Shown here: piece after piece, positions 4,573-14,791 of the stretch
How positions within the stretch are numbered: the stretch's first letter is position 1
Layout: the number at the start of each line of letters is the position of its first letter
From: Halalkalibacterium halodurans
Lineage (GTDB): Bacteria; Bacillota; Bacilli; Bacillales; Bacillaceae_D
Direction: 5' to 3'
Length of the DNA stretch: 32,000 nt
NCBI RefSeq assembly: GCF_004376175.1
Contig: NZ_SNUY01000046.1
Span: 1,344-33,343, forward strand
Notes under the pieces: generated by a model
Database searches by the model: none
What the model was told of the DNA's origin: nothing
Seen by the model: the letters and a program-made list of their open reading frames with translations, nothing else
Translations under genes and position numbers: made by a program

Positions 4573-5139
4573 TTACAATCGAATGCACAATCGATCAATA
4601 ACTTTTCTAGGTGAGTCATTTAACTCACGAATAAAAGCTTGCACATTTCTTCGAATCTCTTTAACAGAGGAATAAAAAAGGTTATTAATTACGTCTGATT
4701 TGAGCCATTTCCATAACCCTTCAATGAGATTTAACTCAGGGCTGTAAGGTGGTAAAAAAACCAATTCTAAACGATGTTGGTGGTTACGCAAAAAAGGTTC
4801 AATCAGCTTCGCATGATGAATACGGGCATTATCTAACACCATGACAATCTTACCGGTCGGATAGTGTTTCAATACCTTTTGAAGAAAACGAAGAAACGCT
4901 TCGGCATCGTATCGTTCTTCTTCTACACAAAGCACATCTCCCGTTTCATAATTAAGTGTACCGATGAGTTTGACACCCTGGTGCTTTCCATAAGTCGGAA
5001 TGATTCGTTGCTTGCCTTTTAAAAACCATGTGTATTGAAGAGCTTGGTAATCCCGAATCATCGACTCATCTTGAAAGAGAAGATGGTCAATCTCCTCATT
5101 TAAGAGTTTTTTTATAGGCAGGGAACGTCTCTTCCACAA
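4573..5139 (-). CDS. IS630-family transposase, DDE catalytic part (orfB)
   Basis: 188 aa. DDE_3-type motifs are visible: LFQDESMI, VMVLDNARIHHA and PPYSPELNLIEGLWKWLK. It has only a TTG start in the track, so it is probably expressed as a fusion with orfA. Confidence 0.85.
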   Translation of the reverse strand: MWKRRSLPIKKLLNEEIDHLLFQDESMIRDYQALQYTWFLKGKQRIIPTYGKHQGVKLIGTLNYETGDVLCVEEERYDAEAFLRFLQKVLKHYPTGKIVMVLDNARIHHAKLIEPFLRNHQHRLELVFLPPYSPELNLIEGLWKWLKSDVINNLFYSSVKEIRRNVQAFIRELNDSPRKVIDRLCIRL

Positions 5140-5617
5140 ACTCTTTTTGTTTCAACGGGTCAGCTTTTGCCAGCGTATAAGTCGGTTTGGTATAACTAAG
5201 GCCTAAATCGTGTAAAAGTCGAGAGACACCACGAAGAGTATACGGTTGGTTCCATTTTTTCTCGATAAATGAAGCAATGATCTTTAACGTCCAATTATAC
5301 TTAGCTGGGAAGCCAACATCTACGGGAAGTTTGGTCGCAATCACTTGAGCCAATTCCTGTTCTTGTTCGGGTGTTAATTTGCGTGGCGCTCCAGGTGATT
5401 GTCCCATGGTTAAGCCATCTAGTCCCTTTTCTTCGTAGGCATTCACATAGTTATAGATAGTTTTTTCGGAACGCCCAATCATGGTTGTGATTTCTTTTTT
5501 AGAATAGCCTTGTAAATAAAAGTAAATCGCTTGATAACGTTCATACATTCGTTTATCTTTGGTCGTTTTCATCGCTGTAAGCAAGGTTTCGATTTCATGT
5601 TGACGTGAATGGGTCAT
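5096..5617 (-). CDS. IS630-family transposase, N-terminal HTH part (orfA)
   Basis: 173 aa with helix-turn-helix-like segments (YSKKEITTMIGRSEKTIYNYVNAY; YTLRGVSRLLHDLGLSY). It ends inside an A7 run where the reading frame switches to orfB. Confidence 0.85.
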   Translation of the reverse strand: MTHSRQHEIETLLTAMKTTKDKRMYERYQAIYFYLQGYSKKEITTMIGRSEKTIYNYVNAYEEKGLDGLTMGQSPGAPRKLTPEQEQELAQVIATKLPVDVGFPAKYNWTLKIIASFIEKKWNQPYTLRGVSRLLHDLGLSYTKPTYTLAKADPLKQKEFVEETFPAYKKTLK

Positions 5618-6344: not shown

Positions 6345-6788
6345 TTAATGCTTCATATTTTGGTTTTGACCTTGCTTTTGGTTTTGACCGTTTTGACTGT
6401 CTTGTTGATCTTGTTGACCTTGTTCTCCATTATTTTGTCCGAACTCATTCATGGCTTCTTGAACGAGCGTGACGGCCTGGCTCATGGCGGCCCCTCCACC
6501 AAAAGCAGCAGTCACTCCAATCGCTTCCAGAATCTCTTCTTCTGAGCAATCTTGGTCCATGCATCCTTTTGTATGATAAATGATGCAATATTCATCTTGG
6601 GCAAAAACGCTAACACCTAGGGCGATCAACTGTTTCTGTTTTTGCGAAAGCTCCCCTTTTGCGAAGCAAGCTTCAGTAAACGCATTGTACTTTTCTGCAA
6701 TCTCCGGCATCTTCTGTTGAAAGGTGCCAAGCCCTTCTTTATAATCCATTAGTGCCATTTCCATCGGGTTCATTTGTTGTTGATCCAT
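6345..6788 (-). CDS. Carboxymuconolactone decarboxylase (AhpD-like) family protein with a Q/N-rich C-terminal tail
   Basis: CMD-family core ([29 protein letters not shown]). Start set at the ATG at 6786-6788 ([11 protein letters not shown]), which has AAAGGAGGT six nt upstream. The position corresponds to B. subtilis yurZ. Confidence 0.8.
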
Positions 6789-6933
6789 CGTACAACCTCC
6801 TTTGCTTTTCAACGTCTTTAGTATGAGATCGAACTACATAATTCATTCGAATAATGATTCAAAAGCATCCTTGCAAAACAAGAAAAAAACCTTTATCGTG
6901 AAAAAAGGTGAAAGAAATGATGGGAACAGCATA

Positions 6934-6970
6934 GGAAAAGACGACCGAAATGGGCGTTCGACCGTCTTTT
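6934..6970 (-). terminator. Strand-specific rho-independent terminator after the AgrD-like gene
   Basis: The minus-strand RNA reads AAAAGACGGUCGAA-cgcccau-UUCGGUCGUCUUUUCC. This gives a 10-bp stem including two G-U pairs, which would be A-C mismatches on the plus strand, followed by a U-tract. Confidence 0.6.
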
Positions 6971-6977
6971 CTTTACA

Positions 6978-7100
6978 TTATTTTTGTTTCTTTAAGCTAT
7001 TAGGAATCTTTGGCGCATATATGAGTGGGCTAGACGCATTGACAAACGCTTTTGAGATTCCAAGAGTCGCTTTTGAAATGACTTTAGCTGTTCTCTTCAT
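6978..7100 (-). CDS. agrD: AgrD-like autoinducing-peptide precursor (40 aa), not in the ORF track
   Basis: The ATG at 7098-7100 has GGAGGTG (7107-7113) six nt upstream. Translation: MKRTAKVISKATLGISKAFVNASSPLIYAPKIPNSLKKQK. It has a basic amphipathic N-terminal leader, a central Ser-Ser-Pro-Leu-Ile-Tyr stretch, then a PKIP-containing tail. It is on the same strand as agrB, downstream of it, and followed by its own terminator. Confidence 0.6.
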   Translation of the reverse strand: MKRTAKVISKATLGISKAFVNASSPLIYAPKIPNSLKKQK

Positions 7101-7199
7101 TCGTTTCACCTCCCTCTATAAATTAAGATTTTCTTCAAAATGCTTTAAATATCTTAGAATTTCATTGCCTTTTGTTATCCTCTGATTAGATGAAACTTG

Positions 7200-8865
7200 C
7201 ATTTCATGCATTTGTTGGAAATATGAATGCCATCCTGGTAGAGATCATGCTTTCTCGCTTTAAAAATATGATCGCACCAGTGGATCTCCACATTTCTCTG
7301 GGGGTTACCCTCCCATTTCTCTCAGGGTCTTTGCCCGCACATTCCTTCGTCCAACCTAACCAGAGGTGGAGGCCTGTAAAAGCTCCTTTGCAGGGTCTAT
7401 GCCCGAATGGTGAAATTAATCAACAGGCTTCTCCGTGCTTCGCTTTTCAAGGATCTGCACACCTAGATATTTAAAGATATTTGTGTTTCTTCAACATGAC
7501 TAAGCAGCATTCTGTATTTGTTGCAAGCGGATGTGTCCGAGACATTTTTCTCCATTGTAAGACACACGCTTGTGTCCTAAGCTAAATAACACGCGAATCA
7601 ACTTACAGCACAACGCGATCATGGATTGTTGTTTTTTCAACGGATTCTCGGAGCGTGTCGTTAAGTACTCATGCATTTGCTTGAACTCCCGATTCTTCGC
7701 CACCATGGGGCGTATCGCTGCATACAACAGGGATCTCAGTTTGGGGCGTCCCCGCTTGGTAATGCGGGTTTGACCTCTGAACTTGCCTGAGGTATTTTCT
7801 CGCAGATTGAATCCTGCCAGTTTTTGAACCTGTCGTGGGTGCGTGTAGTTGGACAGATCGCCAACCTCAGCCAGGAAGCCAGCCACTGTCACTAGTCCCA
7901 CGCCTGGAATACTCATCATGTAGGGCACAGCTGGAATCTGCTCTAGTAATGCTTCTACATCTTGCATGAGCTGTTCCATTTGTCCACACAAACACTGGTA
8001 TTGTTCCATCAAGCTTTGGAGTTCTTGCCTAGCCATTGACAGACCTTCCGTAAGACCAACAGAACGCTTGGCGGCCGCCACAAGCGCATTGGCTCGCTTG
8101 ATCCCTATGGCTCGTTTCACTTCTTGCTTCCAGTGTCTTAGGATCTTTTCCGCACCCAGATTGATGATTTCTTGCGGGAGAGGAAACGCCTCTAGCGTCA
8201 TCAGTGCAGCCTTTCCTTCCCAAATCTTAAACACCTCATGAAATTCAGGGAAAAAGCGATCCAGCCAGTTGAGAATACGCCCCCGAACGCGTTGTAAGTC
8301 TTCTTGTAGACGGTCTCGCAGGTTCATCCCATTACGTAATTCAGCATATATGCCAGTGGGGACTTGGGGTTCAGAGTACCGTCCGTCTTTGACCAATTGA
8401 GCGATGACTCGGGCATCCTTTACATCATTTTTGGTGGGCGAATTGTCATCTAATTCCTTGCTCTTCTTCACATGCATCGGATTGACGACAACATACTTAA
8501 TCCCTTCATGGCGCAGAAACTGGGCAAATGCCATCCAGTAATGCCCTGTGGGCTCAAAACCTACAATGACATCCGGTTTGGCATGTTCTCGCATGAGGCT
8601 CTTCATCCACAAACGAAATCGTTGAAATCCGGCTCTGCTGTTTTCAATGTTCATTGGCTTGCCAAATTCAATTCCTCTGGCATCTTGAGCTCTAGCCACA
8701 TGGTTCTCCTTGGCGATATCCACGCCAATAACGAGTGTTGATTCGGTGATTTGCTTGATTTTGTGATTTTGGTTATACTTCATCTTGAGTCCTCCTTCGT
8801 ACTAATTAAGGATCAGTAGCTACTGATACCTCGTATCGTACAGGAGGGCTCTTTCTGTTTCAAAC
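7200..8865 (-). mobile_element. IS110-family insertion sequence (boundaries approximate)
   Basis: A single DEDD-type transposase gene with at most 96 nt of 5' flank before the agrB stop, and about 300 nt of non-coding 3' flank. I found no terminal inverted repeats, which is usual for this family, so the ends are only estimated. Confidence 0.7.
7500..8783 (-). CDS. IS110-family (DEDD) transposase/recombinase
   Basis: 427 aa. N-terminal RuvC-like motifs: VIGVDIAKENH, FEPTGHYW, VVVNPMHVKK and KNDVKDARVIAQL. C-terminal Transposase_20-type motifs: IPGVGLVTVAGFLAEVGD and RITKRGRPKLRSLLY. AAGGAGG lies seven nt upstream. Confidence 0.93.
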   Translation of the reverse strand: MKYNQNHKIKQITESTLVIGVDIAKENHVARAQDARGIEFGKPMNIENSRAGFQRFRLWMKSLMREHAKPDVIVGFEPTGHYWMAFAQFLRHEGIKYVVVNPMHVKKSKELDDNSPTKNDVKDARVIAQLVKDGRYSEPQVPTGIYAELRNGMNLRDRLQEDLQRVRGRILNWLDRFFPEFHEVFKIWEGKAALMTLEAFPLPQEIINLGAEKILRHWKQEVKRAIGIKRANALVAAAKRSVGLTEGLSMARQELQSLMEQYQCLCGQMEQLMQDVEALLEQIPAVPYMMSIPGVGLVTVAGFLAEVGDLSNYTHPRQVQKLAGFNLRENTSGKFRGQTRITKRGRPKLRSLLYAAIRPMVAKNREFKQMHEYLTTRSENPLKKQQSMIALCCKLIRVLFSLGHKRVSYNGEKCLGHIRLQQIQNAA

Positions 8866-8879
8866 CTCAAATTCTTTCA

Positions 8880-9458
8880 TTACAGGAATGCTCCTTTCAA
8901 GATGAACCGATTGAGCTGCCTCGTGACCTTTAGGCCAATAGGCGTAAGGAGCACCCCTTGTAATAGAACCCCGAGAACGAGGCCTTGAGCCGACATAAAC
9001 ATTGCAAGAATGATAAAAAGAACGATGAGGATGTAAGCTATCCGTTTCTTCCGCCGCTCCCAATGCTCTGTATGTACTACTTGATGAGCCTCATAGTATG
9101 GAGCGTATTTCCAAATCAACAGTCCCCCGCTAATTCCATAAAGAATCCAAGCATAGTTGTTTGCAAACGGAACCCAGAAAATTGCCGTGATGAACAGAAC
9201 GGACAGCAAAGTACAGCCAATAGAATGATCAAGGTGAGCACCTCCCGTCAACACCCTCATGAACGTGAAGGATAGTGCGATTTGGAGAAACAGCCAAATC
9301 TCTCCGTGGAGAAGGCCAACCGCTATGACGAGCAATAAAGTAAAGAGATAGTGGAGAATGATCGTGAATCCAAACGTTAGAACCTCAACCGATTCTGTTT
9401 CTTCTGCATTCAATGCTTTCACTTGATGTGCCAACGTTAAAGCAAGACGTTCAAGCAT
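8880..9458 (-). CDS. agrB: AgrB-family accessory gene regulator protein (AgrD-processing membrane peptidase)
   Basis: Polytopic membrane protein with the motif RVLTGGAHLDHSIGC. The His and Cys are 7 residues apart, as for the catalytic H77/C84 of S. aureus AgrB. Start set at the ATG at 9456-9458, preceded by a G7 tract. The upstream gene stops 11 nt before it. Confidence 0.85.
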   Translation of the reverse strand: MLERLALTLAHQVKALNAEETESVEVLTFGFTIILHYLFTLLLVIAVGLLHGEIWLFLQIALSFTFMRVLTGGAHLDHSIGCTLLSVLFITAIFWVPFANNYAWILYGISGGLLIWKYAPYYEAHQVVHTEHWERRKKRIAYILIVLFIILAMFMSAQGLVLGVLLQGVLLTPIGLKVTRQLNRFILKGAFL

Positions 9459-9469
9459 CAAACCCCCCC

Positions 9470-10744
9470 CTATTTTCTTATAAAGCGGATGCTACATTCT
9501 AGCGGGCGAATTTGTGAATCAACTTTCGCGTTATTTTGCTGAAAGTACATAAGATCATCGACAATCTTAAGTGTTGTCACATCTTGCTCTGAAAGCTCTA
9601 GGTTGCTCGATATGCGATACTCTAACGTACTATCTGTCATGTTAATCTGCAGCCTGACAAACAAATCGGACATACCTGTTCGGTACAATGCAACGAACAC
9701 CTCGTCCAATATCCGACTTAAATAACGAATTTGCCACAAAGACGTTGGGCGAACGTGCTCAAGAGTCGCTGACACTTTAAACTCGACACCTAATAACCGT
9801 GATAGCTTTTTCTTATTGATGAGAAAGGCATACATCACTTCATCTTCAGATTTGAACAAATGATAGCTCTCATCTTTCACACTAAAACTAGGTAGTTTTT
9901 TTATCGCGACTTTCTTTTCTACATACTCACGAATTAGTGGCGCCGACTCTTTTTCACAAAGCTTTAAAATCGCATTGGAATGGATGCTGTATTCATTTTG
10001 AATCGTTTCGACAATACTTGATAGTTGCTGCTCTTGATCTAGATAAAATTTCTTTGCCTCCATCATCCGCTTCGCTTGAAAGATGGAGTGAAGAACGTAG
10101 TACGTAGATAATACAAGGAAAAGCAATACGATAATGAAGAGAACAAATAAATGTTTGTTTAACACTGCACTTGTCGTCATCACATAAGATGCGAAGCAAA
10201 TGAACAGAAACATCATAAACGCACTTACAAATATAACGCGTTTTTCCTTCGTCGAAAGCAAATCTCCTTCAATATGTCCGCGAAATTCGTTAAGCTGATA
10301 GCTCCCTCGGTAAATGCCGTATGAGGCTGTTGTTACAAGGAGGAACGTACCGCTTTGAATCAGCAACGTTACATCGGTATAAGACAGCAAGACGTCCCAA
10401 TAACTGTAAGAGGACATGGCGGTAATCGCTTCGACAATGATTAATTGGGTAAAGATATAAAATCCATATCCACTGCTCGTCACGACTAACGACTCTAATG
10501 AATTAAATCGAAATAACCATCTGACAAGGATAAACAAAACGGTCATTTGAATGAAAATCACAATCGGCAAGTGCAAATGGGGGACCATTCGTAACACAAA
10601 AATCGATAAAAGACTCAATAACGTACCAATCGCTACAATTGATAAACGATAGCGGCGGAACGTATAACCAAATAATAGAACGGGAAACGATAAGAGGGCG
10701 CTCCATTCCAAAATGGATATTAGGAAGGTTAAAATGTGATACAT
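9470..10744 (-). CDS. AgrC-like 7-TM sensor protein with a degenerate (apparently non-catalytic) kinase module
   Basis: 424 aa: about 7 predicted TM helices in residues 1-220, then a roughly 200-aa cytoplasmic part. The HPK10-like layout is recognisable (IQNEYSIHSNAILKL; LINKKKLSRLLGVEFKVSA; LSRILDEVFVAL). However, DE replaces the N-box DN, and the last roughly 65 residues contain no Gly, so there is no G1 or G2 box. GGGGAG SD lies 8 nt upstream. Confidence 0.7.
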   Translation of the reverse strand: MYHILTFLISILEWSALLSFPVLLFGYTFRRYRLSIVAIGTLLSLLSIFVLRMVPHLHLPIVIFIQMTVLFILVRWLFRFNSLESLVVTSSGYGFYIFTQLIIVEAITAMSSYSYWDVLLSYTDVTLLIQSGTFLLVTTASYGIYRGSYQLNEFRGHIEGDLLSTKEKRVIFVSAFMMFLFICFASYVMTTSAVLNKHLFVLFIIVLLFLVLSTYYVLHSIFQAKRMMEAKKFYLDQEQQLSSIVETIQNEYSIHSNAILKLCEKESAPLIREYVEKKVAIKKLPSFSVKDESYHLFKSEDEVMYAFLINKKKLSRLLGVEFKVSATLEHVRPTSLWQIRYLSRILDEVFVALYRTGMSDLFVRLQINMTDSTLEYRISSNLELSEQDVTTLKIVDDLMYFQQNNAKVDSQIRPLECSIRFIRK

Positions 10745-10774
10745 ACGTGATTCTCCCCTATCATTCTGAAAGAT

Positions 10775-11572
10775 TTAAATCGTCATGTTTTTCCCTTTTG
10801 GAATGGTTAATGTGACAACCACACCTCTTTTTGGATGGTTCTTGATCTCAAGCGTCCCCTCCATGGCTTCTATAATGGTTTTGCATATGGGCAATCCTAA
10901 GCCTGTTCCCTCATCCTTCGTCGTAAAAAAAGGATAAAAAATGTTCTCTAATTGATCCTCAGCAATTCCTGGTCCATCGTCATGAATGACAAGAATCACT
11001 GCGTCCTGATCATTGGAAAGCTTGATGGAAATGGTTCCTTCTTCCTCTATTGCTTCAACAGCGTTTTTAATAAGATTAATAAGTACTTGCTCAAAGCGGG
11101 TTACATTACCTGAAATATATAAGCCTTCTGCCAAATCTGTGCGAAACCGGATCTCTTTCTTGTCTTGCTTCATTTTCTGAATGAGAATAACCTTTTCAAT
11201 GCTACGCTTGACATCAATCAATGACAAGTTTTCCTCGTCAAGATGGGCTTTGGCGAACGTTAATAACTCTTGAATGAGCGCCTCCATACGAATAGCTTCA
11301 TCTTTAATGATAGACGTATATTGGGCAATCGTGGGATCAGAGCGAATCGTTTCATTTTGCTCAAGGTATTGAGTAAAACCGATAATCGAGGTTAGAGGAT
11401 TTCTTATTTCATGAGCAAAAAATGCCGCCATTTTTCCGATAGCTGCATGATAATTCTCATTTCCATCCTTATAATCATTTCCGATCTCACTTAGACGCTC
11501 TTGATATGATTTCTTTTTTTCTATTGGCTTTGTCTTTCTTTGCAGCCAGCTTTTAAAAAATGGACGGTTCAT
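10775..11572 (-). CDS. Soluble sensor-less histidine kinase (HisKA + HATPase_c)
   Basis: H-box FFAHEIRNPLTSIIGF, N-box LINLIKNAVEA, G1 HDDGPGI, F-box FYPFFTTK and G2 GTGLGLPICK are all present. There is no TM or PAS segment. Start placed at the ATG at 11570-11572 (MNRPFFKSW) with an upstream GGGAG. The track ORF extends to a TTG at 11659 without an SD. Confidence 0.85.
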   Translation of the reverse strand: MNRPFFKSWLQRKTKPIEKKKSYQERLSEIGNDYKDGNENYHAAIGKMAAFFAHEIRNPLTSIIGFTQYLEQNETIRSDPTIAQYTSIIKDEAIRMEALIQELLTFAKAHLDEENLSLIDVKRSIEKVILIQKMKQDKKEIRFRTDLAEGLYISGNVTRFEQVLINLIKNAVEAIEEEGTISIKLSNDQDAVILVIHDDGPGIAEDQLENIFYPFFTTKDEGTGLGLPICKTIIEAMEGTLEIKNHPKRGVVVTLTIPKGKNMTI

Positions 11573-11882
11573 GATGATAACACTCCCACTAATCGCACGA
11601 AAAAATTCTGCCCTTTCGATATTGTTACAATTTCGACGCTTTATTGTAAGTTCCTTCAAATATTTTCATTCTTTTCTGACATAATTTTTCCCAGTTTTCG
11701 AATATTCCTGAATCGAACTGAGCGCCTCCCATAACGTAAGAAAAACCCCTGCTTGAGAAGTAACAGAGATAAATAAATCACGGTGTACTACAAAAAGGTG
11801 ATGACTTATTACTGCCTCTCGGAAAGTTGCCTCGCTTTTGAGGCCATGCACCAGACAGCTACGCCTCCCTTTCTTCATTTAC

Positions 11883-11914
11883 AAAGAAAAGACCAGCGAT
11901 TATCATCACTGGTC
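11883..11914 (-). terminator. Putative terminator of metNPQ
   Basis: The minus-strand RNA reads GACCAG-12 nt loop-CUGGUC followed by UUUUCUUU, directly after the metQ stop. Confidence 0.5.
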
Positions 11915-11922
11915 CTTATCGA

Positions 11923-14627: not shown

Positions 14628-14791
14628 CAAAAAAACCTTTCCGCCATGAGCAGAAAGGAATGTTTTACGTCTTCCCTTCTCTCATCTCTCAAAGCATCGC
14701 TTTGCAGGAATTAGCACCTTTTCCAAGCGATTTGCTGCTTGGCGGTTGCTGGGCTTCATCGGGCCAGTCCCTCCACCTCTCATGATAAGAG
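14628..14791 (-). promoter_or_regulatory. SAM-I (S-box) riboswitch with intrinsic terminator
   Basis: The minus strand reads CTCTTATCATGAGAGGTGGAGGGACTGGCCCGATGAAGCCCAGCAACCG...AAAAGGTGCTAATTCCTGCAAAG...GAGAGATGAGAG. P1 is CTCTTATC/GATGAGAG. The hairpin CCTTTC-N10-GGAAAGG plus T7 follows at 14628-14657. Confidence 0.9.

What the first reader, a model, noticed from the sequence alone, without database searches (positions are those of the whole stretch)
8880..11659. agr-like cassette with a split sensor: dead-kinase AgrC-like membrane protein plus sensor-less soluble histidine kinase, and no AgrA
Three tightly packed minus-strand genes (gaps of 30 and 11 nt) encode the following:
- A 265-aa histidine kinase with complete H, N, G1, F and G2 boxes but no TM or sensory domain.
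- A 424-aa protein with an AgrC-like 7-TM N-terminus. Its cytoplasmic half keeps the HPK10 layout but has DE in place of the N-box DN and no glycine-containing G1 or G2 boxes.
- An AgrB homologue with the His/Cys catalytic pair.

No LytTR (AgrA-type) or any other response regulator lies in the cassette. The soluble kinase has an H-box (FAHEIRNPLTS) typical of Bacillus phosphorelay (Kin-type) kinases.

The complementary losses suggest a two-protein receptor. The pseudokinase would bind the peptide and the soluble kinase would supply catalysis, possibly feeding an orphan regulator or Spo0F rather than AgrA. I do not know of a described agr system with this architecture.

The cassette also sits where B. 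subtilis has nothing, between the yurZ and metQ equivalents, so it looks accessory.
Basis: partly seen in the sequence, partly recalled or inferred. Interest (0 to 1): 0.78.

Follow-up and report, generated by a model that had tools for sequence, protein, structure and literature searches.

The report
Split agr quorum-sensing receptor operon
This Halalkalibacterium halodurans locus is a conserved peptide quorum-sensing operon in which the usual single receptor-kinase appears to be split into a catalytically dead membrane receptor and a separate sensor-less histidine kinase, with no response regulator attached; I found no description of this layout.

Summary
Window 8880-11659 (minus strand) encodes three proteins:
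- A 265-aa soluble HisKA histidine kinase with every catalytic box intact and no sensor domain.
- A 424-aa 7-TM protein (BH3476).
- AgrB, with His75 and Cys82.

BH3476 matches no Pfam, NCBIfam or PDB sequence. Its predicted fold best matches the S. aureus AgrC kinase module. A profile search links it (E about 1e-9) to real AgrB-adjacent kinases.

Aligned to those kinases, BH3476 lacks four things: the phospho-acceptor His, the N-box Asn, the G1 box, and the whole F/G2 ATP lid (a 21-22-residue gap). It is a full pseudokinase.

In this strain a 1.78-kb IS110-family element inserted at the agrD ribosome-binding site separates it from agrB. Other H. halodurans strains carry no IS there.

The order kinase, pseudokinase, agrB, agrD is conserved in about 21 Bacillaceae species with unrelated flanking genes. 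Three species keep only the kinase-pseudokinase pair. No response regulator is linked.

The best reading is a two-protein autoinducing-peptide (AIP) receptor signalling to an unlinked regulator. Physical coupling and the target regulator remain inferred.

The parts
11573..11887 (-). 5' untranslated and promoter region of the operon, between the metQ terminator and the kinase start codon
   Evidence: A terminator-like hairpin at 11917..11888 lies just after metQ. A ribosome-binding site GGGAGTGT precedes the ATG at 11572 and matches the conserved TAGGAGTGT of the orthologues. No conserved operator and no Spo0A box was found.
10775..11572 (-). Soluble, sensor-less class I histidine kinase (BH3477 orthologue, 265 aa). 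It has a short basic/aromatic N-terminal motif, a variable linker, then DHp and CA.
   Evidence: HisKA and HATPase_c hits. All catalytic boxes are invariant in 24 orthologues. No TM segment. In the AF2 model residues 1-40 are low-confidence, DHp spans 41-111 and CA spans 117-259. Best PDB relatives are KinB 3d36, ThkA and ZraS.
9470..10744 (-). AgrC-like 7-TM pseudokinase (BH3476, 424 aa): TM sensor 1-222, conserved juxtamembrane/DHp-like helix 223-278, degenerate CA domain 299-424.
   Evidence: No Pfam, NCBIfam or PDB sequence hit. AF2 pLDDT 79.7. Foldseek top hits are AgrC 6e95/6e52, E 7.6e-6. The profile reaches real SPOB_a+HATPase kinases next to AgrB. Loss of His, N-box Asn, G1 and the ATP lid. 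The pseudo-CA is as conserved as the TM domain.
8880..9458 (-). AgrB peptidase. The last residues are altered by the IS insertion: ...LKGAFL in place of ...LKGGETNEENS.
   Evidence: PF04647 4.5e-28. His75 and Cys82, and the comparison with strain C-125.
7114..8890 (-). Strain-specific IS110-family insertion (1,777 bp). The transposase is at 7500..8783, followed by about 385 bp of non-coding sequence at its 3' end. GGAG is present at both junctions.
   Evidence: DEDD_Tnp_IS110 and Transposase_20, and NF033542. Junctions were mapped against the IS-free strain C-125. The element is absent from 8 other H. halodurans loci. It is present once in the window.
6978..7100 (-). agrD precursor (40 aa): MKRTAKVISKATLGISKAFVNASSPLIYAPKIPNSLKKQK. 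It has no Cys. The predicted ring is Ser-Ser-Pro-Leu-Ile.
   Evidence: TIGR04223 quorum_AgrD, 28.6 bits against a cutoff of 19. It lies immediately after agrB in every relative that has agrB and in IS-free H. halodurans. The Ser sits 10 residues before the conserved Pro, as Cys does in S. aureus AgrD (for the relatives; the S. aureus sequence is from memory).
6935..6970 (-). Likely intrinsic terminator of the operon: a 12-bp stem with two G-U pairs, then a short T run.
   Evidence: Read directly from the sequence. The consensus scan flagged only the + strand version at 6952..6967.

Best explanation
The locus is a four-gene agr-type quorum-sensing operon: kinase, AgrC-like pseudokinase, agrB, agrD. 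The receptor function is divided between two proteins.

Proposed signal production. AgrB (His75/Cys82) processes the 40-aa AgrD into a cyclic lactone peptide. The predicted ring is Ser-Ser-Pro-Leu-Ile, closed through the first Ser. The peptide has no Cys.

Proposed signal reception.
- The 7-TM domain of BH3476, which is homologous to the sensor domain of real AgrB-linked kinases, binds the peptide.
- BH3476 cannot autophosphorylate, because it lacks the phospho-His, the N-box Asn, G1 and the ATP lid.
- Its highly conserved juxtamembrane/DHp-like helix and pseudo-CA domain instead dock the soluble kinase encoded just upstream. They switch that kinase's autophosphorylation or phosphatase activity.
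- The soluble kinase is fully competent and has no sensor domain.
- It then signals to a response regulator encoded elsewhere. Spo0F of the sporulation phosphorelay is the leading but untested candidate.

Shown here: the gene content, the catalytic degeneracy, the AgrC-like fold and homology, strict co-conservation, and the absence of a linked regulator.

Inferred: peptide binding by BH3476, physical coupling to the kinase, the direction of regulation, the identity of the regulator, and the peptide structure.

In this particular strain an IS110-family element sits between agrB and agrD, so signal production may be impaired or deregulated while the receptor pair is intact.
For: Anatomy.

AgrC-like nature of BH3476:
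- AF2 model, pLDDT 79.7, with 7 TM helices, a long helix and a Bergerat-like sandwich.
- Foldseek top hits are the AgrC histidine-kinase module 6e95/6e52, E 7.6e-6.
- A profile search of 1.84 billion proteins links the family to 440-470-aa kinases with SPOB_a and HATPase_c_5 at E 1e-9 to 1e-7. Of the two whose context could be read, one sits upstream of agrB-agrD (P0039) and one is fused to AgrB (P0038).

Pseudokinase status: the alignment with those kinases shows RHDF going to (K/N)(N/D)Y, LLDNA going to ILDE/IIDD, no G1, and a 21-22-residue gap in place of F/G2.

Not decaying: the pseudo-CA shows 44% mean pairwise identity and the juxtamembrane helix 55%, against 43% for the TM domain.

Kinase competence and lack of a sensor.

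Coupling:
- The kinase is adjacent in 16 of 17 species loci and in Paenalkalicoccus, Lederbergia ruris, Bacillus sp. FSL K6-3431 and Niallia, with different flanking genes in each.
- The kinase orthologue group is sharply delimited: 47-61% identity, then a drop to 39%.
- L001, L004 and L009 retain only the kinase-pseudokinase pair.

Signal genes: agrD is present in every agrB-bearing locus, with a near-invariant core FV.ASSP..H.PKIP.SL.

No response regulator.
Against: - There is no direct evidence of a protein-protein contact. No complex prediction with a contact readout was available, and there are too few sequences for coevolution analysis.
- No fusion protein joins the two families.
- The relationship to S. 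aureus AgrC itself is undetectable by sequence: hhalign probability 7% and global alignment z = 0.6.
- The H-box does not single out sporulation kinases.
- No Spo0A boxes or other conserved operator lie upstream.
- A second tier of related pseudokinases (P0031, P0032) occurs with agrBD but without any adjacent kinase. A partner kinase is therefore not a general requirement of AgrC-like pseudokinases.
Confidence: 0.6

Rival explanations
1. BH3476 is a peptide-independent regulator of the kinase. It would act as a membrane scaffold or anti-kinase, comparable to KipI or Sda for KinA/KinB. The AgrBD peptide would be sensed elsewhere or would have another role.
For: The pair persists without agrBD in three species. 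The pseudo-CA could retain a DHp-docking surface.
Against: The TM domain is homologous over its whole length to the sensor domains of AgrB-adjacent real kinases and of TM-only proteins that always sit next to agrBD. Of the 20 assessable species loci, 17 carry agrB and agrD. Receptor-only loci are equally expected for eavesdropping receptors.
Confidence: 0.12
2. BH3476 works on the production side, in export, N-terminal trimming or self-protection for the peptide. The soluble kinase would be an unrelated passenger regulated by a cytoplasmic cue.
For: S. aureus needs a second membrane protease (MroQ) for AIP maturation (title and abstract of bioRxiv 10.1101/2021.12.29.473670, listed). BH3476 has no assignable catalytic function.
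Against: The cytoplasmic half has a DHp/CA kinase fold, not a protease or transporter fold. HK and BH3476 are kept together where agrBD is absent. The kinase has no sensor domain of its own with which to read a cytoplasmic cue.
Confidence: 0.07
3. The cassette is a decaying remnant. BH3476 would be a dead AgrC on its way to loss and the system would be non-functional.
For: All catalytic motifs are lost. In this strain an IS interrupts the operon. The C. mannanilyticus agrB hit is split over two reading frames.
Against: Intact full-length ORFs occur in about 21 species from at least 8 genera, with strongly conserved cytoplasmic motifs such as EAKKFYLDQEQQ and DELLYAFLINKRKLA. Eight other H. halodurans loci are IS-free with identical BH3476.
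Confidence: 0.05
4. This is a sub-hypothesis of the best explanation. The kinase output is specifically Spo0F, which would make this an agr-type cell-density input into sporulation.
For: The kinase is an orphan in spore-forming Bacillaceae. The top solved homologue for the single sequence is Geobacillus sporulation kinase B, 3d36, at 125.5 bits. Its nearest paralogues are KinB-like membrane kinases and PAS kinases that some sources label sporulation kinase A/B/E.
Against: ThkA (125.4 bits) and ZraS (120.3) score essentially the same. AtoS and ZraS models outscore the KinD model. No Spo0A boxes are conserved upstream. No phosphotransfer data exist.
Confidence: 0.3

Closest known systems
Staphylococcus aureus agrBDCA (AgrC HPK10 receptor kinase plus AgrA REC-LytTR regulator)
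   Same: An AgrB peptidase with a His/Cys pair at the same spacing. An AgrD precursor with an amphipathic leader, a 5-residue ring register 10 residues before a conserved Pro, and a charged tail. A 7-TM receptor whose cytoplasmic half has the AgrC-like DHp/CA fold.
   Different: The receptor has lost the phospho-His, the N-box Asn, G1 and the ATP lid. A separate HisKA-type soluble kinase is encoded in the operon. There is no AgrA. The gene order is kinase-C-B-D, not B-D-C-A. AgrD has Ser instead of Cys. The AgrD core is nearly invariant across genera rather than hypervariable.
Caulobacter DivL-CckA (a pseudo-histidine kinase that controls a true histidine kinase)
   Same: A catalytically repurposed histidine-kinase-fold protein is proposed to regulate a separate active kinase (PMC4211667 and bioRxiv 10.1101/812529, found).
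   Different: DivL keeps a largely intact kinase module with Tyr in place of His, reads a phosphorylated response regulator, is not a peptide receptor, and is not encoded in an operon with its kinase. Here the contact is only inferred.
Clostridial agrBD loci without a cognate AgrCA (C. difficile Agr1; C. perfringens AgrBD signalling through unlinked VirS/VirR)
   Same: The agr signal genes are uncoupled from a linked AgrA. In these organisms there are links between agr signalling and sporulation (PMC8534292, PMC7492741, PMC10602386).
   Different: Those loci carry no receptor at all, or use an unlinked but complete kinase. Here a dedicated receptor-like pseudokinase and a dedicated kinase are both in the operon.
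Spo0B phosphotransferase (helical hairpin plus a CA-like domain that cannot bind ATP)
   Same: The architecture is a DHp-like helix pair followed by a degenerate CA domain. The real-kinase relatives of BH3476 carry the SPOB_a-type DHp. The description of Spo0B structure is from my own knowledge.
   Different: Spo0B is soluble and retains the phospho-accepting His. BH3476 is a 7-TM protein and has lost that His.
Geobacillus stearothermophilus sporulation kinase B (PDB 3d36), Thermotoga ThkA (3a0r) and E. coli ZraS (9jfj)
   Same: These are the closest solved relatives of the soluble kinase. They share the HEIRNPLT H-box and the full DHp/CA core.
   Different: All three have their own sensor domains (TM or PAS). 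The window kinase has only about 40 disordered residues ahead of the DHp.

Membership tests
agr-type quorum-sensing system | AgrB membrane peptidase (PF04647) with a catalytic His and a Cys 7 residues apart | tested here: met
   PF04647 4.5e-28. H75 and C82 in GGAHLDHSIGC.
agr-type quorum-sensing system | AgrD precursor peptide encoded next to agrB | tested here: met
   TIGR04223, 28.6 bits against a cutoff of 19. Adjacent to or overlapping agrB in IS-free H. halodurans strains and in all relatives that have agrB. In the window it is displaced 1.78 kb by the IS.
agr-type quorum-sensing system | Cys in AgrD that forms the thiolactone ring | tested here: not met
   No Cys occurs in any of the family's AgrD sequences. 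An invariant Ser-Ser lies at the ring position. A Ser lactone, as in S. intermedius, is inferred (Ji et al. 2005, cited as ref. 78 in PMC12180512).
agr-type quorum-sensing system | AgrC: a catalytically active HPK10 receptor histidine kinase (phospho-His, N box, G2 box; HATPase_c_5) | tested here: not met
   No HATPase or HisKA hit even at E<=10 in any of 14 members. His, Asn, G1 and F/G2 are absent in the alignment with real kinases. Only the fold and the TM domain are AgrC-like.
agr-type quorum-sensing system | AgrA: a linked REC-LytTR response regulator | tested here: not met
   No REC ORF in the 32-kb window. Sixteen of the 17 scanned loci have none within the available flanks (up to 8 kb). 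The one hit, in L017, is a PhoB-like REC ORF about 4.4 kb upstream. No REC or LytTR Pfam hit among the called genes.
Class I HisKA histidine kinases (the 265-aa protein) | H box with phospho-His, plus N, G1, F and G2 boxes, within a DHp + CA fold | tested here: met
   Pfam HisKA and HATPase_c. H54, N166/N170, D198-G200-G202, F212 and G222-G224-G226 are invariant. AF2 shows DHp + CA.
Sporulation phosphorelay kinases (KinA-E type) | Phosphotransfer to Spo0F, and the sequence signature around the H box | tested here: inconclusive
   KinB 3d36 is the top hit, but it ties with ThkA and ZraS. The KinD model scores 152.6 bits, far below its 775 cutoff and below AtoS and ZraS. Phosphotransfer cannot be tested with these tools.
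Bacterial pseudo-histidine kinases that regulate a true kinase (DivL-like logic) | A histidine-kinase fold with lost catalytic residues that remains under purifying selection | tested here: met
Bacterial pseudo-histidine kinases that regulate a true kinase (DivL-like logic) | Direct physical and functional control of a partner kinase | not testable with these tools
   Only genomic coupling is shown.

The most novel reading that the evidence does not exclude
A catalytically dead AgrC-type peptide receptor acts as the ligand-binding subunit of a two-protein receptor. It allosterically switches a dedicated soluble HisKA kinase, which feeds the sporulation phosphorelay through Spo0F. That would be a bacterial counterpart of receptor-associated kinases, and the first agr-type cell-density input into Bacillus-type sporulation. 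It would use a nearly invariant Ser-lactone peptide shared across at least eight genera of mostly alkaliphilic Bacillaceae.
Probability: 0.25. Interest if true: 0.85.

Novelty: new variant of a known kind. Interest (0 to 1): 0.7.

Why it matters
All characterised agr systems use one protein, AgrC, both to bind the peptide and to phosphorylate AgrA. This operon appears to separate the two jobs. That would give a natural system for asking how a 7-TM peptide sensor transmits a conformational signal to a kinase module supplied in trans.

It would also add a ligand-gated example to the few known bacterial pseudokinases, such as DivL.

The operon exposes a wider set of agr-like systems that seem to have abandoned phosphotransfer:
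- TM-only sensors paired with REC-less LytTR proteins;
- pseudokinases paired with an Asp-less receiver domain.

If the output is Spo0F, the operon would link peptide quorum sensing of the agr type to sporulation in Bacillaceae. In B. subtilis that role is filled by the Rap-Phr system.

The near-invariant AgrD core across genera contrasts with the pherotype diversification seen in staphylococci. It suggests a shared, cross-species signal.

Tried and rejected
- Direct sequence identification of BH3476 failed. Pfam and NCBIfam at E<=1-10 gave nothing. A PDB profile search gave only noise. hhalign against the PDB-verified AgrC sequence gave probability 7%. A global alignment of the cytoplasmic halves gave z = 0.6 against shuffles. 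The link came only from the fold search and from the profile search through intermediate kinases.
- A fusion protein (Rosetta stone) was sought and not found. No HK-BH3476 fusion appears among 91 profile hits. The TM domain of the nearest KinB-like paralogue is unrelated to BH3476 (hhalign probability 0.3%).
- The genomic context of those KinB-like paralogues could not be obtained. The one metagenome scan returned only generic kinases.
- Upstream regulatory motifs. Spo0A boxes are present in only 5 of 20 loci and are not positionally conserved. The only conserved elements are the ribosome-binding site and, in about 8 of the upstream regions read by eye, a TGTAGAAT-like extended -10.
I treated it as unrelated.
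- Literature. No paper mentions BH3475-BH3477, none connects AgrC with a pseudokinase, and none describes agr in H. halodurans. Wuster & Babu 2008 is not held. The 2025 AgrD genome-mining paper does not analyse receptors.
- A fused-chain AF2 complex was considered and not run. The tool returns no contact or PAE information and refuses sequences that are not native.
- Rfam gave no family for the 385-bp non-coding end of the IS.


Full report
**Source and layout.** The 424-aa protein is 100% identical to BH3476 of Halalkalibacterium (Bacillus) halodurans. On the minus strand the window reads as follows:
- SAM riboswitch (14679-14791) and metN-metP-metQ;
- a terminator (11917..11888);
- the kinase (11572..10775);
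- BH3476 (10744..9470);
- agrB (9458..8880);
- an IS110-family element (8890..7114);
- a 40-aa ORF (7100..6978) followed by a hairpin terminator;
- a CMD-family gene (6812..6345).

**The kinase.** It has HisKA (6.4e-16) and HATPase_c (1.6e-27). About 43 clusters at 47-61% identity and 248-284 aa form a sharply bounded orthologue group. The next hits drop to 39% identity and are roughly 400-aa membrane kinases of KinB type.

In 24 aligned orthologues these residues are invariant:
- the H box FFAHEIRNPLT;
- the N-box Asn residues;
- G1 (D-x-G-x-G);
- the F box;
- G2 (G-x-G-x-G-L).

Ahead of the DHp there is only a short basic/aromatic motif (MNxxFxKKWxxKK) and a variable, low-complexity linker of about 30 residues. 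There is no hydrophobic segment (Kyte-Doolittle maximum 0.92). The AF2 model has low confidence for residues 1-40 and then a standard DHp (41-111) and CA (117-259). The kinase is therefore catalytically complete and has no sensor domain.

Its best solved relatives are Geobacillus sporulation kinase B (3d36), Thermotoga ThkA and E. coli ZraS, at practically equal scores. The 'Kin-type H-box' argument therefore does not discriminate.

**BH3476.** No Pfam or NCBIfam family matches it or any of 13 orthologues, even at E<=10. A PDB profile search returns noise.

An AF2 model built on 14 orthologues (pLDDT 79.7) shows three elements:
- seven TM helices;
- a continuous helix 197-264 that leaves the membrane;
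- an alpha/beta sandwich with the strand and helix order of a GHKL ATPase domain.

Foldseek against the PDB puts the S. aureus AgrC cytoplasmic kinase module first (6e95/6e52, E 7.6e-6). DesK, PhoQ-CA and AgrC-CA 4bxi follow.

An exhaustive profile search of 1.84 billion representatives found 91 relatives, in four tiers:
- about 24 full-length orthologues;
- a second tier of 403-415-aa proteins, also Pfam-negative;
- real kinases of 440-470 aa with SPOB_a, HATPase_c and HATPase_c_5, at E 1e-9 to 1e-7;
- many roughly 220-aa proteins made of the TM domain only.

Of the real kinases whose context could be read, one sits directly upstream of agrB-agrD (L030) and one is fused to AgrB (P0038). BH3476 is therefore a true homologue of AgrB-associated receptor kinases.

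**Catalytic degeneracy.** Aligned with those real kinases, the BH3476 family shows four losses:
- The phospho-acceptor His of the RHDFxNH box is replaced by N, D, K, T or E (N252 in BH3476). The partly conserved His seen in 12 of 14 members aligns with the second His of the box, not the acceptor.
- The N-box LLDNA is ILDE/IIDD.
- The G1 N-x-G is absent.
- The F and G2 boxes fall in a 21-22-residue gap, so the ATP lid is deleted.

The domain is not decaying. Mean pairwise identity is 44% in the pseudo-CA, 55% in the juxtamembrane/DHp-like helix (motif EAKKFYLDQEQQ) and 43% in the TM domain.

Direct comparison with the S. aureus AgrC sequence is not significant. Residues 208-430 proved identical to PDB 6e52, while the TM part (residues 1-207) remains unverified. 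hhalign gave probability 7% and a global alignment gave z = 0.6.

**Signal genes.** AgrB matches PF04647 (4.5e-28) and has His75 and Cys82, 7 residues apart.

In every relative that has agrB, a 40-aa ORF follows it immediately. Its consensus is MKKTAK..S..T..LS..FV.ASSP[LFGAV].[HYN].PK[IV]P.SLKK.K. The window copy lies at 6978..7100 and scores 28.6 bits against TIGR04223 quorum_AgrD (cutoff 19).

The family has no Cys. The first Ser of the invariant Ser-Ser lies 10 residues before the conserved Pro. That is the register of the ring-forming Cys in S. aureus AgrD (from my own knowledge). A Ser or Thr sits at the same position in the more distant agr-like loci L028-L031 and L040. I infer a Ser-lactone pentacycle, Ser-Ser-Pro-Leu-Ile. 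This is a prediction, not a result.

**The insertion.** Eight other H. halodurans loci, including the type strain C-125 (BA000004.3), carry kinase(265)-BH3476-AgrB(197)-AgrD(40) with agrB overlapping agrD and no IS.

Alignment with C-125 places a 1,777-bp insertion at window 7114..8890. It sits inside the agrD Shine-Dalgarno sequence (AAAGGAG^GTG), with GGAG at both junctions. The insertion replaces the last residues of AgrB: GETNEENS becomes AFL.

The element encodes an IS110-family transposase and occurs once in the window. In this strain agrD is therefore 1.78 kb away from agrB. Its expression would depend on read-through or on an IS-borne promoter.

**Co-conservation.** A scan of one genome per species found 17 loci encoding a BH3476 relative.
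- The kinase is directly upstream in 16 of them.
- The exception, L014, is a draft assembly in which the kinase lies at the end of another contig. Two other assemblies of that Niallia species have the genes adjacent.
- Starting from kinase orthologues in other genera (Paenalkalicoccus, Lederbergia ruris, Bacillus sp. FSL K6-3431) gave the same four-gene order each time, with unrelated flanking genes.
- Three species (L001, L004, L009) keep only the kinase-BH3476 pair, with no agrBD nearby.

Retention of the pair without the signal genes fits a receptor role better than a role in signal production.

**No regulator.** phmmer with five REC seeds found no receiver domain in the 32-kb window. In the 17 loci (up to 8 kb each side where the contig allows) it found a single ORF, about 4.4 kb upstream of the kinase gene. 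The precomputed Pfam annotations of the other loci show no Response_reg or LytTR either.

**Mechanism.** The best-supported reading (confidence about 0.6) has three steps:
1. BH3476 is the peptide-binding subunit.
2. It controls the soluble kinase through its conserved juxtamembrane helix and pseudo-CA.
3. The kinase signals to an unlinked regulator.

Spo0F is the leading candidate (about 0.3). The kinase is an orphan in spore-formers and its top solved homologue is a sporulation kinase. ThkA and ZraS score equally, however, and no Spo0A boxes are conserved upstream.

The alternatives are weaker for the reasons given in the rival entries:
- a peptide-independent anti-kinase;
- a production or export factor;
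- a decaying remnant.

One caution applies. The second-tier pseudokinases occur with agrBD but without an adjacent kinase. The partner kinase is therefore specific to this clade.

**Comparison and novelty.** The locus fails three defining features of a canonical agr system: an active AgrC, a linked AgrA and the Cys thiolactone. It meets the AgrB and AgrD features. The closest functional analogy is DivL-CckA, a pseudokinase controlling a kinase. The closest architectural analogy for the cytoplasmic half is Spo0B.

Seven full-text searches found no description of this arrangement, of BH3475-BH3477, or of an AgrC pseudokinase. The library covers open-access papers only.

I rate it a new variant of a known kind, with interest 0.7.

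Noticed in passing
window 7114-7499 (3' part of the IS110-family element, minus strand): About 385 bp of non-coding sequence follows the IS110-family transposase, and the tetranucleotide GGAG is present at both insertion junctions. This is where IS1111-type members of the family would carry their guide (bridge/seek) RNA. Rfam gave no hit. I did not fold or compare it.
   Followed up: partly
window 4573-5617 (minus strand): A second insertion sequence: two overlapping ORFs with HTH domains (173 aa) and DDE_3 (188 aa), which is IS630-like with a probable frameshift. The sufC-to-CMD spacing is about 1.9 kb here against about 0.8 kb in other H. halodurans strains, so this IS is probably strain-specific too.
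   Followed up: partly
window 14679-14791 (minus strand): A SAM riboswitch (RF00162, 86 bits) lies upstream of the metN-metP-metQ methionine ABC transporter operon. This is ordinary.
   Followed up: no
L031 372-2221; L040 538-2213; L041 1618-3293: Roughly 220-aa proteins consist only of the AgrC-like TM domain and make up most of the weaker profile hits. They sit in the order TM-only sensor, AgrB, AgrD (39-42 aa), then a REC-less LytTR protein of 122-173 aa. This looks like an agr-type system with no phosphotransfer at all, reminiscent of the membrane-inhibitor/LytTR pairs of streptococci (my own knowledge).
   Followed up: partly
L028 6168-8829: A second-tier AgrC-like pseudokinase (P0031, 411 aa, no His, no ATP lid) is followed by AgrB, a 38-aa AgrD and a REC-LytTR regulator. 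In that regulator Asn stands where AgrA has its phospho-Asp (LFINY against YFLDI). It may be a pseudokinase/pseudo-receiver pair. It is a single example.
   Followed up: partly
L001, L004 and L009, positions about 7150-9260: Halalkalibacter urbisdiaboli, a Bacillaceae MAG and Bacillus sp. FJAT-50079 carry the kinase-pseudokinase pair but no agrB or agrD next to it. They may be signal-blind producers' neighbours, that is, 'listeners'.
   Followed up: partly
L021 4256-4726 (H. halodurans C-125, BA000004.3): The type strain has an IS200-type Y1 transposase between metQ and the kinase gene, and its kinase is annotated at 294 aa from the upstream TTG. Together with the window's IS110-family insertion, this shows two independent IS insertions around this operon in one species.
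   Followed up: no
agrD in L018-L025 compared with window 6978-7100: The AgrD tail is polymorphic among H. halodurans strains. It reads PNGLKKQK in six loci, including C-125, and PNSLKKQK in the window and in two others. The predicted ring is unchanged.
   Followed up: no
P0038 (656 aa; metagenomic): An AgrC-like real kinase (SPOB_a + HATPase) is fused in one polypeptide to an AgrB domain. It is either a genuine receptor-peptidase fusion or a missed stop codon.
   Followed up: no
L011 9268-9821 (Caldalkalibacillus mannanilyticus): The agrB match is split into two tblastn segments in different reading frames. This is a frameshift or a sequencing error in that draft genome.
   Followed up: no
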